From a virus: DNA of 39,388 nucleotides. Positions 901-35,590 of the stretch are shown here, piece after piece; position 1 is the first letter of the stretch, and each line of letters starts with the position of its first letter. Location of the stretch: IMG/VR virus record IMGVR_UViG_3300027852_000025, positions 1 to 39,388 of that record; one strand, written 5' to 3'. The notes below the pieces were generated by a model. That model was not told where the DNA came from and searched no databases. It worked only from the letters and a program-made list of their open reading frames with translations. The position numbers and the translations under genes are program-made.

Positions 901-1062
901 GCGGTCGTGGTGGAATAGGTAGACATATTTTTATGGATATTCTAGTAACAAAAACGTGGTGCGATATAGCTGGCAGAAAATCGAACTTACCAGCTACTAG
1001 ATTAAGTAAAAAGAGCGCATCAGATCAATGCGTTGCAGGTTCGATCCCTGCCGGCCGCACCA
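901..1062 (+). tRNA. tRNA-Leu(UAA)-like gene interrupted by a 68-nt intervening sequence (about 935-1002) in the anticodon loop
   Basis: Acceptor GCGGTCG (901-907) pairs with CGGCCGC (1052-1058). U8/G9 are present. The D arm GUG-GAAUAGGUAGA-CAU nearly matches the E. coli tRNA-Leu D loop. T arm is GCAGG-TTCGATC-CCTGC (1035-1051). A73 and an encoded CCA lie at 1059-1062. Anticodon stem is TTTTT (928-932) with AAAAA (1008-1012). A 6-bp variable-arm hairpin spans 1015-1033. Deleting 935-1002 leaves the loop AUUAAGU. Confidence 0.7.
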
Positions 1063-1085
1063 TATTACTGATTAAAGGTGAAGAT

Positions 1086-1370
1086 ATGAAGGTTTTACAC
1101 CTGACATTAAAAAAGAAGTGGTTTGATATGATCGCTAGTGGTGAAAAACGAGAAGAATATAGAGAAATAAAGCCATATTGGAATAAGCGATTAAATAAGC
1201 AATATGATGTTATTAGCTTTAGAAACGGGTATTCAAAAGATGCACCAAAAATGACAGTTGAGTTAAAAGAAATATCAAGAGGAAAAGGCGTTGTTGTATG
1301 GGGTGCGCCTGTATTTGAACCAGTTTACATATTAAAGCTTGGCAATATTTTAGCCGCACCATATAAATAG
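1086..1370 (+). CDS. ASCH-domain (PUA-like, RNA-binding fold) protein, 94 aa
   Basis: ATG at 1086 preceded by aaaggtgaag. MKVLHLTLKKKWFDMIASGEKREEYREIKPYW is a typical ASCH N-terminus. The track ORF start at 933 lies inside the tRNA and is rejected. Confidence 0.6.
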   Translation: MKVLHLTLKKKWFDMIASGEKREEYREIKPYWNKRLNKQYDVISFRNGYSKDAPKMTVELKEISRGKGVVVWGAPVFEPVYILKLGNILAAPYK

Positions 1371-2916: not shown

Positions 2917-3375
2917 ATGGGTAAATATGACGAACCAGAACAAGCAGTAATATTTGATATGGATGGAACATTAGCTGATTGTGAACATAGAAGGCATTTT
3001 GTTGAAGGAAAAAAGAAATACTTTGATAAGTTCTATGACGCAATGGACGAAGATACCACAAATAGCGTTATATGTGGGTTATGCAATATGTATTTTATGA
3101 ACAACTGGCATGTAATTATCTGTACAGGAAGGCCTGAAAGTTATAGGAATATAACCGAAAAATGGCTTAAAGACCATGGTGTATTTTATAAAGAGTTAAT
3201 GATGCGCCCTAATGATCGTAAATATGATCCTGATTTCGAGGTTAAGCAGACAATGCTTGATGAAATATTGAAAGATAGAAAAGTTCATGCAGCTATTGAC
3301 GATAGAAATCAAGTTGTCAATATGTGGCGAAGGAATGGAATTACTTGTATGCAAGTTGCAGATGGTGGTTTTTAA
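2917..3375 (+). CDS. HAD-superfamily phosphatase (polynucleotide 3'-phosphatase / nucleotidase-like)
   Basis: DxDxT motif FDMDGTLAD at the N-terminus, CTGRP (motif II-like), and a late IDDRNQ acidic motif. RBS aagaggtga. Confidence 0.7.
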   Translation: MGKYDEPEQAVIFDMDGTLADCEHRRHFVEGKKKYFDKFYDAMDEDTTNSVICGLCNMYFMNNWHVIICTGRPESYRNITEKWLKDHGVFYKELMMRPNDRKYDPDFEVKQTMLDEILKDRKVHAAIDDRNQVVNMWRRNGITCMQVADGGF

Positions 3376-4049
3376 TGAATTATGAAATTGTAAAAAGCAA
3401 AAAGCTGCTTCTTGACTTTATTGATTGGCTGCCAGAGTTAGAAGATCATGAGATATTCTATCTAGCTTTGTTTGCTAGAAAGAAGTATGCTCCTGACCTT
3501 AAATACTCAAAAACAGATAAAACTCAATTAAAAAGATTTACATCTACAAAAGACAAGCTATTTCATAAAATAAAGCAGCTAGAGTGCGAATTAGGAAGTT
3601 ATTATTTGAAAGGAATGGAGGCACCACAAGAATCACTAGCCTTGTACATTACAGTTAATCCAAGAAGCCAAACGAACGCTTCAAGGAATATGCTTATAAA
3701 ACTAGCTCATTTAGTAGGCGAGCCTTATAACGGTCATAATTTACATCAAATTGCTTTATCTGAGATACAAAAAGCAAAGTCATATACAAGGTATGTGGAT
3801 TTTGATATTGATTCTAAGGAAGAGTCTTTAGAGGATATTAAATTAAAATTAATTGATATTGTAGGCTCGGATTGTTGGAAGATATTAGAAACTAGGGGCG
3901 GTTATCATATTCTTGTAAACCCAAATAATTCTAATAATAAGTTTTGGTATAACAAGATTAAAAGTGCGTTCGTGTGTGACGTTGTTGGCGACAATATGAT
4001 TCCGGTAATAGGATGTACTCAGGGTAATTTTATTCCTAAGTTTGTTTAG
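3375..4049 (+). CDS. Archaeo-eukaryotic primase (AEP)-like protein, candidate phage primase
   Basis: The start at 3375 overlaps the upstream stop as TAATG. Three motifs occur in AEP order: YVDFDID (DxD), ETRGGYHILV (sGxGxH-like), and FVCDVVGD...IPVIGCTQGN. No DnaG-type primase is present elsewhere. Confidence 0.4.
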   Translation: MNYEIVKSKKLLLDFIDWLPELEDHEIFYLALFARKKYAPDLKYSKTDKTQLKRFTSTKDKLFHKIKQLECELGSYYLKGMEAPQESLALYITVNPRSQTNASRNMLIKLAHLVGEPYNGHNLHQIALSEIQKAKSYTRYVDFDIDSKEESLEDIKLKLIDIVGSDCWKILETRGGYHILVNPNNSNNKFWYNKIKSAFVCDVVGDNMIPVIGCTQGNFIPKFV

Positions 4050-34876: not shown

Positions 34877-35590
34877 ATGATAAATTATAAAGTTCCTAGA
34901 GACATTAGAGTTAATACGATACATAAATCTAATAACTGGGGCGATTTCATAATCACGTGTTATGTAAATGCTCTCAAAGTTGGTATTTATTTTATAGGAT
35001 CAAAGAATGAATATTTTGTTGCATCTGCTCACATTAGAACTGGCAAAGTTTCTGATTCAGAAATAGCTAATAAGCATAAATCTACAAAATTGACACAGGA
35101 TAGGATAATAAATTTACTTGATTACGATCAATTTACTGGTGAATTTACATGGAAAATACAAAGAAGGCATTTAAAAATAGGCGATAAAGCCGGGCATTTG
35201 CGATCAGATGGCTATATTTATATTAAAGTTGATGGAAAAACATACCTTGCTCATAGATTGGCTTGGCTTTATATGGCAGGAGAATGGCCTTCCGATGAAA
35301 TTGATCACATAAACCATAGAAAGAATGATAACCGGATTACAAACATTAGAGTCGTTACTCATGTTGAAAATAGCAAGAATAAGTCATTATCTATAAATAA
35401 CACTAGTGGATGCATTGGAGTTTGCTTCGACAAAGCAAGAAATAAATGGCGTTCAAACATTCGTGCAAATGGTAAGGCAATGCCTCTTGGAGATTTCACT
35501 GATAAAAATGACGCTGTTATAGCTAGAAAAATGGCTGAAATAAAATACGGATTTCATGAAAATCATGGCTCTAACTCAACCACCCTATAG
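34877..35590 (+). CDS. Free-standing HNH (HNH_3) + AP2-domain homing endonuclease, paralogue of 27769-28527
   Basis: AHRLAWLYMAGEWPSDEIDHINHRKNDNRITNIRVVTHVENSKN plus SGCIGVCFDKARNKWRSNIRANGK...GDFTDKNDAVIARKMAE. The N-terminal SNNWGDFIITCY...KVGIYF matches SNHCGDFIITFY...KVGLYF in the other copy. Confidence 0.85.
   Translation: MINYKVPRDIRVNTIHKSNNWGDFIITCYVNALKVGIYFIGSKNEYFVASAHIRTGKVSDSEIANKHKSTKLTQDRIINLLDYDQFTGEFTWKIQRRHLKIGDKAGHLRSDGYIYIKVDGKTYLAHRLAWLYMAGEWPSDEIDHINHRKNDNRITNIRVVTHVENSKNKSLSINNTSGCIGVCFDKARNKWRSNIRANGKAMPLGDFTDKNDAVIARKMAEIKYGFHENHGSNSTTL

What the first reader, a model, noticed from the sequence alone, without database searches (positions are those of the whole stretch)
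901..1062. tRNA-Leu(UAA)-like gene split by a 68-nt intervening sequence too short to be a group I intron
Every part of a class II tRNA is present and correctly spaced except the anticodon loop.
- The 7-bp acceptor stem has one G-U pair.
- The D arm is Leu-type (GAAUAGGUAGA).
- There is a long variable-arm hairpin, a canonical TTCGATC T loop, A73 and an encoded CCA.

The five-U strand at 928-932 finds its partner AAAAA only at 1008-1012, leaving 75 nt between them. Removing 935-1002 (or equivalently 933-1000, since AT flanks both ends) gives the loop A-U-UAA-G-U, with U33 and a purine at position 37. The mature length would be 94 nt.

The D loop, the long variable arm and A73 all point to Leu. 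tRNA-Leu(UAA) is the classic bacterial host of a group I intron, but those are about 200-300 nt. No bacterial or phage mechanism is known for excising a 68-nt insert at this position.

The insert has its own structure: helices 941-947/995-1001 and 968-973/990-995. It can also pair with the 5' strand of the variable arm (957-963 with 1016-1022), so the precursor could be held in a non-tRNA fold.

Three alternatives remain: a new kind of small tRNA intron, a decoy or regulatory tRNA-like RNA, or a tRNA inactivated by an insertion.
Basis: partly seen in the sequence, partly recalled or inferred. Interest (0 to 1): 0.85.

Follow-up and report, generated by a model that had tools for sequence, protein, structure and literature searches.

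The report
Insert-bearing tRNA-Leu-like phage gene
A phage genome carries one complete leucine-tRNA gene whose anticodon loop is split by 68 extra bases, partly a decayed backwards copy of the gene's own tail; it is probably kept as a tRNA-shaped RNA that no longer decodes, and a new kind of short tRNA intron is the main alternative.

Summary
Bases 901-1062 hold every part of a class II tRNA-Leu, with 68 extra bases in the anticodon loop. It is not the N-terminus of the ASCH protein.

- **The ARAGORN intron call is not evidence.** It recurs in 91% of shuffled middles.
- **The split anticodon stem and loop are non-random.** At fixed positions a parse this good has p of about 0.001.
- **The restored anticodon arm is highly atypical.** It has no G-C pair (1 of 1538 tRNAs), A32 (0 of 107) and G37 (9%).
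- **The insert holds a decayed inverted copy of the gene's own T arm, acceptor strand and ACCA.** The match is 21 of 24 bases; no control reached its score.
- **The tRNA body is flawless and has 59% G+C.** I infer that it has been under selection since the insertion.

No group I, bulge-helix-bulge or Rfam match was found, and no RNA ligase.

Elsewhere, viral and metagenome contigs hold about 50 tRNA-Leu-like genes with 40-70 extra bases. No such gene was found in 185,579 cellular genomes. A clean subset restores canonical loops, and its split anticodon stems covary. The window fits neither group well.

My ranking is non-decoding tRNA-like RNA 0.4, true short intron 0.3, pseudogene 0.2.

The parts
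901..907 (+). acceptor stem, 5' strand (GCGGTCG)
   Evidence: Pairs 7/7 with 1052-1058, one G-U.
910..926 (+). D arm, Leu type (GTG-GAATAGGTAGA-CAT)
   Evidence: The same D arm recurs in the tRNA-Leu-like genes of other contigs.
928..934 (+). 5' strand of the split anticodon stem (UUUUU, 928-932) plus loop bases A32 and U33
   Evidence: A stem at this fixed position has p of about 0.011-0.014. No G-C pair.
935..1002 (+). 68-nt insert (equally 933-1000, because AT flanks both ends)
   Evidence: No Rfam match at E<=10. No second copy in the window or in any fetched locus.
941..1001 (+). Insert's own fold: 7-bp helix 941-947/995-1001 stacked on 5-bp helix 969-973/990-994. The 3' strand 990-1001 is continuous, and a 21-nt bulge lies on the 5' side.
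   Evidence: fold and direct reading. The likeness to the acceptor/T-stem stack of a tRNA is my inference.
955..988 (+). Decayed inverted copy of the gene's own 3' end (T loop, T-stem 3' strand, acceptor 3' strand, ACCA)
   Evidence: Local alignment of its reverse complement with 1039-1062 gives 21/24 identities and 2 gaps, score 26. None of 3000 shuffles or 6518 genome 36-mers reaches that score. Pairing score z=8.1 against a family mean of 0.27. MFE fold.
1003..1012 (+). Loop bases U34 A35 A36 G37 U38 and the 3' strand of the split anticodon stem (AAAAA, 1008-1012)
1015..1033 (+). Long variable arm (GCGCAT-CAGATCA-ATGCGT)
1035..1051 (+). T arm (GCAGG-TTCGATC-CCTGC)
1052..1062 (+). Acceptor stem 3' strand (CGGCCGC), A73 and encoded CCA

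Best explanation
The gene descends from a phage tRNA-Leu(UAA). Its anticodon loop took up an insert made partly from an inverted copy of the gene's own 3' end.

Since then the tRNA body has been kept intact: acceptor stem, D arm, variable arm, T arm, A73 and CCA. The 86-nt middle has drifted towards A+T.

I think the product is a tRNA-shaped RNA of about 162 nt that no longer decodes.
- It is transcribed within the rightward operon, between the small zinc-ribbon-like gene and the ASCH gene.
- It is cut out by the normal tRNA end-processing enzymes, RNase P at the 5' end and 3' trimming to CCA, which read only the acceptor/T-arm/elbow part.
- It may be charged by LeuRS, which in E. coli does not read the anticodon.
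- The enlarged arm cannot reach the decoding centre.

Shown here: the anatomy, the inverted copy, the contrast in G+C, the oddity of the restored anticodon arm, and the existence of many similar phage genes.

Inferred: expression, processing, charging, and what the RNA is for. Candidate roles are a decoy or substrate mimic for tRNA-binding factors, or a punctuation mark for processing the operon's mRNA.
For: - **Selection on the body.** All four body stems are fully paired, with one G-U each in the acceptor and D stems, and the conserved bases are in place. The body has 59% G+C; 927-1012 has 33% and the genome 39%.
- **Decay is one-sided.** The inverted copy differs from its source by 3 substitutions in the strict alignment, 5 in my manual alignment over 1035-1062, plus 2 indels. 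Every substitution is G/C in the tRNA against A/T in the copy. The source still forms a perfect T arm and acceptor stem, so the changes fell on the insert side. Only 2 of the 5 give G-U and 3 give A-C, so the pairing itself does not look selected.
- **The restored anticodon arm looks unfit for decoding.** It has 0 of 5 G-C pairs (1 of 1538 standard tRNAs in my loci, 0 of 107 Leu-UAA). It has A32 (0 of 107) and G37 (9%). The usual loop is CUUAAAA (85%).
- **The unspliced RNA prefers a non-tRNA fold by 9 kcal/mol**.
- **No cleavage or ligation machinery was found.** There is no group I, bulge-helix-bulge or Rfam match. The proteins scanned include no RNA ligase or kinase.
- **A wider set exists.** Fifty unique tRNA-Leu-like genes, the window's included, have 80-110 nt between the D and T arms. 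Default ARAGORN calls none of them, and 38 have a perfect 7-bp acceptor stem.
- **Most of that set cannot decode.** Their middles are hypervariable and often begin with a tri- or tetraloop hairpin. Only 4 of 50 keep a stem at the fixed anticodon-stem position, which equals chance.
- **The insert-bearing state persists under selection.** L245 and L265 show 5 compensatory acceptor pairs and 2 in an insert hairpin.
- **The set is not cellular.** None was found in 185,579 species' genomes.
- **A related phage carries one.** L232 has such an element, with a tetraloop-capped first hairpin, next to the homologue of the window's neighbouring gene.
Against: - The split anticodon stem plus a U33/UAA/purine-37 loop at the right place is unlikely by chance (0.09-0.12%). 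That is easier to explain if decoding still matters or if the insertion is recent.
- TTA is the commonest Leu codon in the phage, 306 of 738.
- No homologue of this particular element was found, so selection on it is inferred from one sequence.
- The wider set is heterogeneous and was gathered with a pattern that fixes part of the D and T arms. It may not be one family.
- No function is demonstrated for any member.
- If the misfold dominates in vivo, even RNase P processing is doubtful.
Confidence: 0.4

Rival explanations
1. True short intron. The 68 nt are removed from the precursor by RNA cleavage and ligation, giving a 94-nt tRNA-Leu(UAA) that reads TTA, the phage's commonest Leu codon.

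A possible route, inferred only:
- The insert's 7+5-bp stacked helix with a continuous 3' strand imitates an acceptor/T-arm minihelix.
- tRNA end-processing enzymes therefore cut beside it. An RNase Z-type cut one base after the helix would fall exactly at 1002/1003.
- A host RNA ligase then joins the halves.
For: - The parse at fixed positions has p of about 0.001.
- The body is intact while the inverted copy has decayed.
- Codon usage favours a TTA reader.
- Analogues exist in other phage contigs. L367/L372/L381/L388 and L379 have 49-50-nt inserts made of an 8-9-bp terminal stem plus ACCA. Those inserts are bounded exactly so that CUUAAAA is restored.
- In those analogues the split anticodon stem has 2 compensatory pairs, the acceptor stem 5 and the variable arm 3.
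- L395 and L190 have tRNA-like inserts, ending in CCA in L395, inside a CUC|AAAA loop.
Against: - The restored anticodon arm is nearly unprecedented: 0 G-C pairs, A32, G37.
- The insert lacks the terminal stem and CCA of the clean cases. Its helix starts 6 nt inside the 5' junction.
- No ribozyme or intron model matches.
- No ligase or healing kinase was found. The HAD/PNKP-like phosphatase at 2917-3375 stands alone.
- The precursor is predicted to misfold.
- No bacterial pathway for such splicing is known (own knowledge).
Confidence: 0.3
2. Pseudogene. A once-functional phage tRNA-Leu(UAA) was inactivated by an imprecise templated insertion, a foldback or template switch that copied its own 3' end backwards. 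It has not yet decayed.
For: - The insert is flanked by a 2-bp AT repeat and contains an inverted copy of nearby sequence. Both are typical of repair or replication errors.
- The element is sporadic. Ten contexts of the neighbouring gene's homologues lack it, as do 80 ASCH loci.
- The anticodon arm is poor, and the transcript misfolds.
Against: - The inverted copy is already about 12-18% diverged with two indels, yet the 76-nt body has no defect.
- All differences lie on the insert side, towards A/T. If both copies were neutral, the chance for five changes is about 3%. This is my estimate and the manual alignment.
- Other insert-bearing tRNA-Leu-like genes show compensatory evolution, so such genes can be kept.
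Confidence: 0.2
3. Small mobile DNA element (MITE-like). The 68 bp are a non-autonomous transposable element with short terminal inverted repeats (TCTAGTA/TACTAGA) and an AT target duplication, which landed in the anticodon loop.
For: AT occurs at both junctions, and there is a subterminal 7-bp inverted repeat.
Against: - No second copy exists in the window, in about 400 fetched loci, or in GenBank phages at blastn sensitivity.
- The left repeat is 8 nt inside the junction.
- Half of the insert is a copy of the host gene itself.
Confidence: 0.04
4. Not an RNA gene. The stretch is the N-terminal coding part of ORF 933-1370, or a chance tRNA look-alike.
For: An ATG at 933 opens an ORF in frame with the ASCH gene.
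Against: - All of the best 80 viral relatives of the ASCH protein, and the closest of 3617 database homologues, align from the Met encoded at 1086. Longer homologues have unrelated extensions.
- Four perfect stems plus the conserved D and T loops, A73 and CCA are not a chance product.
Confidence: 0.02

Closest known systems
Group I intron in bacterial and plastid tRNA-Leu(UAA) genes
   Same: The host gene is the same, tRNA-Leu(UAA), and the interruption is in the anticodon loop. With boundaries 933-1000, the 5' exon ends in U and the insert ends in G.
   Different: The insert is 68 nt, against roughly 200 nt or more for a group I core. No Rfam intron model matches. The position is 31/32 to 33/34, not U34/A35. 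A 2014 review states that all phage group I introns known then lie in protein genes, none in phage tRNAs (PMC3984707).
Archaeal and eukaryal protein-spliced tRNA introns (bulge-helix-bulge)
   Same: Short, with no ORF, poorly conserved in sequence, and placed in the anticodon loop.
   Different: No 3-nt bulge / 4-bp helix / 3-nt bulge can be drawn at these junctions (direct reading). The position is not 37/38. The genome is a tailed phage whose nearest hits are Cellulophaga and Polaribacter phages. Bacteria are not known to have the splicing endonuclease (own knowledge).
Phage T4 stable RNAs, species 1 and 2 (rnaC, rnaD)
   Same: They are phage-encoded stable RNAs of 119-139 nt in the tRNA region. 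Their function is still unknown (own knowledge). rnaC has a canonical T arm (CCGGG-UUCGAAU-CCCGG) preceded by long extra hairpins. It is therefore a tRNA-related RNA that cannot decode.
   Different: rnaC has no recognisable Leu-type D arm or 7-bp acceptor stem in my fold. There is no sequence similarity. The window's RNA keeps a full tRNA body with CCA.
Bacterial and phage Y-RNA-like YrlA (tRNA-mimicking module)
   Same: A non-decoding RNA that keeps acceptor, T-arm and D-arm mimicry, with a long helix leaving from the anticodon-stem position (own knowledge of Chen et al. 2014).
   Different: The topology is permuted. In YrlA the RNA ends lie in the long helix and the acceptor end is closed. 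The Rfam YrlA model does not match the window at E<=10.
Short inserts ending in CCA in the anticodon loops of tRNA-Leu genes of large phage contigs
   Same: Phage tRNA-Leu (UAA or CAA) with a 49-71-nt ORF-less insert in the anticodon loop, an intact class II body and an encoded CCA.
   Different: - Those inserts are a terminal 7-9-bp stem, or a whole small tRNA-like fold, followed by N-CCA in all but L190. They are bounded exactly so that CUUAAAA or CUCAAAA is restored.
- Their anticodon stems hold G-C pairs and covary.
- The window's insert has no CCA in the sense orientation. Its helix starts 6 nt inside the junction, and the restored arm is atypical.
Engineered tRNA scaffolds for RNA expression
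   Same: A foreign RNA is placed in the anticodon arm of a tRNA body, which gives processing and stability (PMC3753655, listed; the details are own knowledge).
   Different: This is a laboratory construct, offered only as an analogy for how the body could serve a non-decoding RNA.

Membership tests
Canonical bacterial class II tRNA-Leu | 7-bp acceptor stem, A73, 3' CCA | tested here: met
   901-907 pairs with 1052-1058. A is at 1059 and CCA at 1060-1062.
Canonical bacterial class II tRNA-Leu | Leu-type D arm with G18 G19, T arm with a TTCRA loop, long variable arm | tested here: met
   The D arm matches that of standard tRNA-Leu genes in fetched loci.
Canonical bacterial class II tRNA-Leu | Contiguous 5-bp anticodon stem and 7-nt loop in the gene | tested here: not met
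   68 nt lie between the loop halves. Default ARAGORN and Rfam at gathering scores find no tRNA.
Canonical bacterial class II tRNA-Leu | After in-silico removal of the insert: an anticodon arm typical of decoding tRNA-Leu(UAA) | tested here: not met
   ARAGORN accepts the 94-mer. However, the arm has 0 G-C pairs (1 of 1538 tRNAs), A32 (0 of 107) and G37 (10 of 107).
Canonical bacterial class II tRNA-Leu | Rfam RF00005 score of the spliced 94-mer | not testable with these tools
Group I intron | Conserved catalytic core (P3-P9), about 200 nt or more | tested here: not met
   The insert is 68 nt. No Rfam match at E<=10 on 850-1110, and none at gathering scores in the whole window.
Group I intron | U before the 5' splice site and G as the last intron base | tested here: met
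   With boundaries 933-1000 these are U932 and G1000. This is weak evidence, because the boundaries are free by 2 nt.
Bulge-helix-bulge intron | 3-nt bulge / 4-bp helix / 3-nt bulge across the two junctions | tested here: not met
   No such pairing can be drawn between 933-940 and 1002-1007 (direct reading; fold).
Bulge-helix-bulge intron | Host with a tRNA-splicing endonuclease (archaea, eukaryotes) | tested here: inconclusive
   The host is unknown. The phage's nearest hits are Cellulophaga and Polaribacter phages, and it carries NinB, NinG, DnaB and a typical tailed-phage head module. This points to a bacterial host.
CCA-ended inserts in phage tRNA-Leu (class seen here) | Insert is a terminal stem of at least 7 bp, or a tRNA-like fold, followed by N-CCA and flush with both junctions | tested here: not met
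   The terminal-stem filter does not list the window. Its helix is 941-947/995-1001, and there is no CCA on the sense strand.
CCA-ended inserts in phage tRNA-Leu (class seen here) | Removal restores a canonical loop (CUUAAAA or CUCAAAA) on a stem with G-C pairs | tested here: not met
   The restored loop is AUUAAGU on a U5/A5 stem.
   The window has 108 nt between the arms.
   The middles share no sequence. The set was defined by a pattern that fixes part of the arms. Only L232 is linked to the window, through a shared neighbouring gene.
YrlA (Y RNA-like) | Match to Rfam RF02553 | tested here: not met
   No match at E<=10 on 850-1110.

The most novel reading that the evidence does not exclude
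The 68 nt are a genuine intron of an undescribed class of short, ORF-less introns in the anticodon loops of phage tRNAs.

In this class the insert imitates a tRNA acceptor/T-arm minihelix, or a whole small tRNA. The cell's own tRNA end-processing enzymes, RNase P and a 3' endonuclease, cut at its two ends. An RNA ligase then rejoins the tRNA halves.

The window would be a divergent, CCA-less member. The CCA-ended inserts in L367, L379, L395 and L190 would be the clear members.
Probability: 0.2. Interest if true: 0.9.

Novelty: new variant of a known kind. Interest (0 to 1): 0.62.

Why it matters
Phage tRNA genes are usually read as simple codon supplements or as spare parts against host anticodon nucleases. 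Introns in bacterial tRNAs are known only as group I ribozymes.

This element shows that phages keep tRNA-Leu bodies whose anticodon arm carries 40-110 extra bases. In some contigs the extra piece is bounded so exactly that a canonical anticodon loop would be restored.

- **If these inserts are spliced,** bacteria or phages have a tRNA-splicing route that nobody has described.
- **If they are not,** phages maintain a widespread class of non-decoding tRNA-shaped RNAs. That would revive the 50-year-old puzzle of T4 species 1 and 2 RNAs with many new examples.

There is also a practical lesson. Standard tRNA finders miss these genes, and ARAGORN's intron mode over-calls them. Gene callers then translate them as false N-termini, as happened with the 145-residue ORF here.

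Tried and rejected
- **Close relatives of the element.** Exact and degenerate scans of viral contigs with exon and junction strings found nothing. blastn of the spliced tRNA and of the insert against GenBank phages gave only generic T-arm hits. The window's own contig could not be retrieved.
- **Synteny.** 80 ASCH loci and 28 NinG loci hold no counterpart. Among contexts of the upstream gene's homologues, only L232/L233 carry a tRNA-Leu-like element.
- **ARAGORN -i as evidence.** Rejected after the shuffle control, in which 91% of shuffles were still called.
- **RNAduplex energy as a statistic for insert-exon pairing.** Rejected because loose multi-loop duplexes in other genome windows reach similar energies. 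I replaced it with alignment-type scores.
- **Selected RNA pairing between the insert and the T arm.** Rejected. It is unique to the window, and the substitutions give as many A-C as G-U.
- **A linked RNA-repair module.** The HAD/PNKP-like phosphatase (2917-3375) has no kinase or ligase partner. The next ORF looks like an archaeo-eukaryotic primase by motif.
- **A conserved partner protein across the insert-bearing set.** None found.
- **Bulge-helix-bulge, group I and YrlA membership.** Not met.
- **MITE.** No other copies found.
- **First gapped pattern.** It mostly returned tandem tRNA pairs.
- **L401.** It proved to be a tRNA-Leu 5' fragment followed by a normal tRNA-Tyr.
Full report
**What is there**

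Bases 901-1062 on the + strand read as a complete class II tRNA.
- The acceptor stem is 901-907/1052-1058, 7 bp with one G-U.
- The Leu-type D arm is GTG-GAATAGGTAGA-CAT.
- The variable arm has a 6-bp stem.
- The T arm is GCAGG-TTCGATC-CCTGC.
- A73 and an encoded CCA follow.

Between the two strands of a U5/A5 stem lie 75 nt instead of a 7-nt loop. Removing 935-1002, or equally 933-1000, leaves the loop AUUAAGU.

Default ARAGORN, Rfam at gathering scores and Rfam at E<=10 all see nothing. It calls the in-silico spliced 94-mer a normal tRNA-Leu.

Two details need correcting.
- AAAAA also occurs at 950-954 and GAAAA at 976-980, so the U5 strand has other possible partners.
- The strongest pairing of the insert was missed (see 'The insert').

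**Not protein-coding**

ORF 933-1370 is in frame with the ASCH gene. All of the best 80 viral relatives, and the closest of 3617 database homologues, begin at the Met encoded at 1086. Longer homologues have unrelated N-termini.

The element sits 19 nt after the stop of a 62-residue zinc-ribbon-like ORF and 23 nt before the ASCH start. It lies in a rightward block that also holds NinB-like, NinG, a HAD/PNKP-type phosphatase and DnaB.

The window is a near-complete tailed-phage genome, with terminase, portal, scaffold and major head protein. Its few DNA hits are to Cellulophaga and Polaribacter phages. It has no other tRNA.

**How much the 'intron' parse is worth**

I shuffled 927-1013 while keeping the tRNA body. 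ARAGORN -i still reported a full-length intron-containing tRNA in 547 of 600 trials, and 13% of those were Leu. The program's call is therefore not evidence.

A stricter test fixes the stem at its proper place, directly after position 26 and within 2 nt of the variable arm.

| Requirement | Shuffles | Real 85-nt genome windows |
|---|---|---|
| 5-bp stem | 1.35% | 1.06% |
| plus U33 and purine 37 | 0.48% | 0.35% |
| plus a Leu anticodon | 0.12% | 0.09% |

The split stem and loop are thus probably a true remnant of a tRNA-Leu(UAA) anticodon arm.

That arm is very odd for a working tRNA, however. I compared it with 1538 distinct standard tRNAs in the loci fetched here.
- Only one of them has no G-C pair in the anticodon stem.
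- Among 107 tRNA-Leu(UAA), 85% have the loop CUUAAAA.
- None of the 107 has A32, and 9% have G37.

**The insert**

Its reverse complement aligns with the gene's own 3' end. GTTCGA-TCCCTGCCGGC-----CGCACCA matches GTTCGATTTTCTGCCAGCTATATCGCACCA at 21 of 24 positions with two gaps. None of 3000 shuffles or 6518 genome 36-mers reaches that score (MAFFT view).

On the RNA this gives about 24 bp between 956-988 and 1037-1063. The minimum-energy fold uses it and beats the cloverleaf by 9 kcal/mol (-50.6 against -41.6).

The feature is unique to this element. Its z score is 8.1, against a mean of 0.27 in 49 other insert-bearing genes.

Every substitution is G/C in the tRNA against A/T in the copy. In my manual alignment over 1035-1062 there are five. 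Two give G-U and three give A-C.

I read this as a neutrally decaying inverted duplicate, not a selected pairing. The source copy is still a perfect T arm and acceptor strand, and the body has 59% G+C against 33% for 927-1012. The decay therefore fell on the insert side only. This argues that the body has been under selection since the insertion. It is an inference from a single sequence.

The insert also folds on itself. A 7-bp helix (941-947/995-1001) stacks on a 5-bp helix (969-973/990-994), and the 3' strand is continuous. This is the layout of a tRNA acceptor/T-stem stack, and it ends one base before the 3' junction.

**No known excision machinery**

- No group I or other ribozyme model matches.
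- No bulge-helix-bulge can be drawn.
- The scanned proteins include three homing-endonuclease-like ORFs and a stand-alone HAD/PNKP-type phosphatase, but no RNA ligase or polynucleotide kinase.
- The ORF after the phosphatase has primase-like motifs.

**Relatives**

No close homologue of the element was found. ASCH and NinG loci lack it.

Among phages that share the upstream gene, one (L232/L233) carries a tRNA-Leu-like element beside that gene. It has the same T stem, 80 nt between the D and T arms, a tetraloop-capped first hairpin and no split anticodon stem.

**A wider phenomenon**

I scanned for a Leu-type D arm and this T arm separated by 80-110 nt. Together with the window and L232, the scans gave 83 distinct sequences from viral and metagenome contigs.
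- Thirty-three are tandem standard tRNAs.
- Fifty are not callable as tRNAs.
- Thirty-eight of all 83 have a perfect 7-bp acceptor stem at the right distance, and the unforced GTGGTGGAAT(T) motif is conserved.
- Rfam's tRNA model spans several of them above its threshold.
- Their middles share almost no sequence.
- ARAGORN -i gives them arbitrary anticodons.
- Only 4 of 50 have a stem at the fixed anticodon-stem position, which equals chance.
- Many start with a tri- or tetraloop hairpin.
- L245 and L265 show compensatory changes in 5 acceptor pairs and 2 insert-hairpin pairs.
- No partner protein recurs, and only 12 of 49 loci hold other tRNAs.

The same pattern in 185,579 cellular genomes gave 13 matches. 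All are explained by standard tRNAs or stray fragments.

**A cleaner subset**

A second pattern and the fixed-position test revealed tRNA-Leu genes in large phage contigs, inside big tRNA arrays. Their inserts are bounded exactly.
- L367/L372/L381/L388 read ACAGA-C|49 nt|UUAAAA-TCTGT.
- L379 reads AGGGA-CUU|50 nt|AAAA-TCCCT.
- Each of those inserts is an 8-9-bp terminal stem plus ACCA, with a shared core CCAGUG...GGGGCAGCACC.
- L395 and L190 read CUC|65-71 nt|AAAA. Their inserts fold as small tRNAs. L395's ends in U-CCA, and Rfam itself calls it a tRNA.
- Across L367-type and L379, the split anticodon stem has 2 compensatory pairs, the acceptor stem 5 and the variable arm 3.

I found no paper describing such inserts. 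A 2014 review states that phage group I introns are all in protein genes.

These cases make short phage tRNA introns plausible as a class. The window does not share their hallmarks: it has no sense-strand CCA, its helix starts 6 nt inside the junction, and its restored arm is atypical.

**Weighing**

Three readings survive.

1. **A non-decoding tRNA-shaped RNA.**
   - It explains the intact G+C-rich body, the drifting A+T-rich middle, the unfit anticodon arm and the absence of machinery.
   - It also fits the many other phage genes of this build.
   - T4 species 1 and 2 RNAs are an old precedent.
   - It leaves the Leu-compatible loop to an 8% coincidence, and its function is unknown.
2. **A true short intron.**
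   - It explains the loop, the intact body and the TTA bias, 306 of 738 Leu codons.
   - It must accept an almost unprecedented anticodon arm and an unknown mechanism.
3. **A pseudogene.**
   - It explains the sporadic presence and the repair-like origin.
   - It does not explain why only the insert copy decayed.

I give them 0.4, 0.3 and 0.2.

**Verdict**

This is a real and unusual gene. It is not an artefact and not coding sequence. The most useful outcome is the link to a larger set of insert-bearing phage tRNA-Leu genes that I could not find described in the searched literature. Some of them look like exact, possibly spliceable, CCA-ended inserts.

Noticed in passing
L367:1327-1459(-), L372, L381, L388; L379:7383-7516(+): tRNA-Leu(UAA) genes in large phage tRNA arrays with a 49-50-nt insert in the anticodon loop. 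The insert is an 8-9-bp terminal stem plus ACCA with a shared core CCAGUG..GGGGCAGCACC. It is bounded so that CUUAAAA is restored. It sits after C32 in one lineage and after U34 in the other. The split anticodon stem covaries.
   Followed up: partly
L395:1697-1848(+), L190:1617-1769(+), L269 (element): A tRNA inside a tRNA. tRNA-Leu(CAA)-type genes (CUC|..|AAAA) whose 65-71-nt insert folds as a small tRNA, ending in U-CCA in L395. Rfam calls the inner one in L395 (1732-1793, 38.2 bits). L269 also holds a nested tRNA-like sequence.
   Followed up: partly
L395:4626-4820(+): A 195-nt Rfam tRNA hit (42.9 bits). It reads as tRNA-Gln(UUG) with an insert of about 118 nt between positions 35 and 36, again ending in CCA. 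The phenomenon is therefore not limited to tRNA-Leu.
   Followed up: no
L238-L341 (for example L245, L265, L240/L242/L289, L273/L291/L302, L318/L325): About 45 distinct tRNA-Leu-like genes with a perfect body and a hypervariable, structured 80-110-nt middle. They are mostly solitary. They occur in viral and metagenome contigs but not in 185,579 cellular genomes.
   Followed up: partly
L223 (984-3619): Seven ARAGORN -i 'intron tRNAs' in one cluster. Several share the same acceptor stem (GGACTGA) and T arm, so they look like a tandem family of insert-bearing tRNA-like units.
   Followed up: no
L088/L100:6495-6625, L093:8645-8747: G+C-rich phage contigs with NinG carry class II-like tRNA-like genes. 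ARAGORN parses them only with 37-nt or 13-nt 'introns'.
   Followed up: no
L119:9412-9581(-): A Leu-type D arm and acceptor stem with an 81-nt middle. The middle contains a second, sense-oriented, perfect T-arm hairpin (GCAAG-TTCGATT-CTTGC).
   Followed up: no
L353:2840-2976: A bacterial MAG contig with repeated 5' fragments of a tRNA-Leu gene (CCCCGTGGTGGAATTGGTAGACAC appears twice) ahead of one complete tRNA-Leu(tag).
   Followed up: no
window 2917-3375 and 3375-4049 (+): A stand-alone HAD/PNKP-type phosphatase (Pfam E=4e-31) with no kinase domain. It is followed by a 224-residue ORF with primase-like motifs (DFDID, RGGYHIL) and no family match.
   Followed up: partly
window 27769-28527(-), 32216-32893(-), 34877-35590(+): Three free-standing homing-endonuclease-like ORFs (HNH_3+AP2, NUMOD/I-HmuI-like, HNH_3) in a 39-kb genome.
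   Followed up: no
window 1032-1008 (- strand): On the opposite strand, the variable-arm hairpin followed by the complement of the A-run scores as an intrinsic-terminator-like site (CGCATTGATCTGATGCG CTCTTTTTAC).
   Followed up: no
window 933-1370 (+): Public protein collections hold a 145-residue product (P0001, 100% identical) that starts inside the tRNA-like gene. This is a gene-calling artefact caused by the uncalled RNA gene.
   Followed up: yes
L254, L258, L284 (about 150-390 nt after the D arm): A small ORF of about 60-75 residues recurs immediately downstream of three otherwise unrelated insert-bearing tRNA-Leu-like genes.
   Followed up: no
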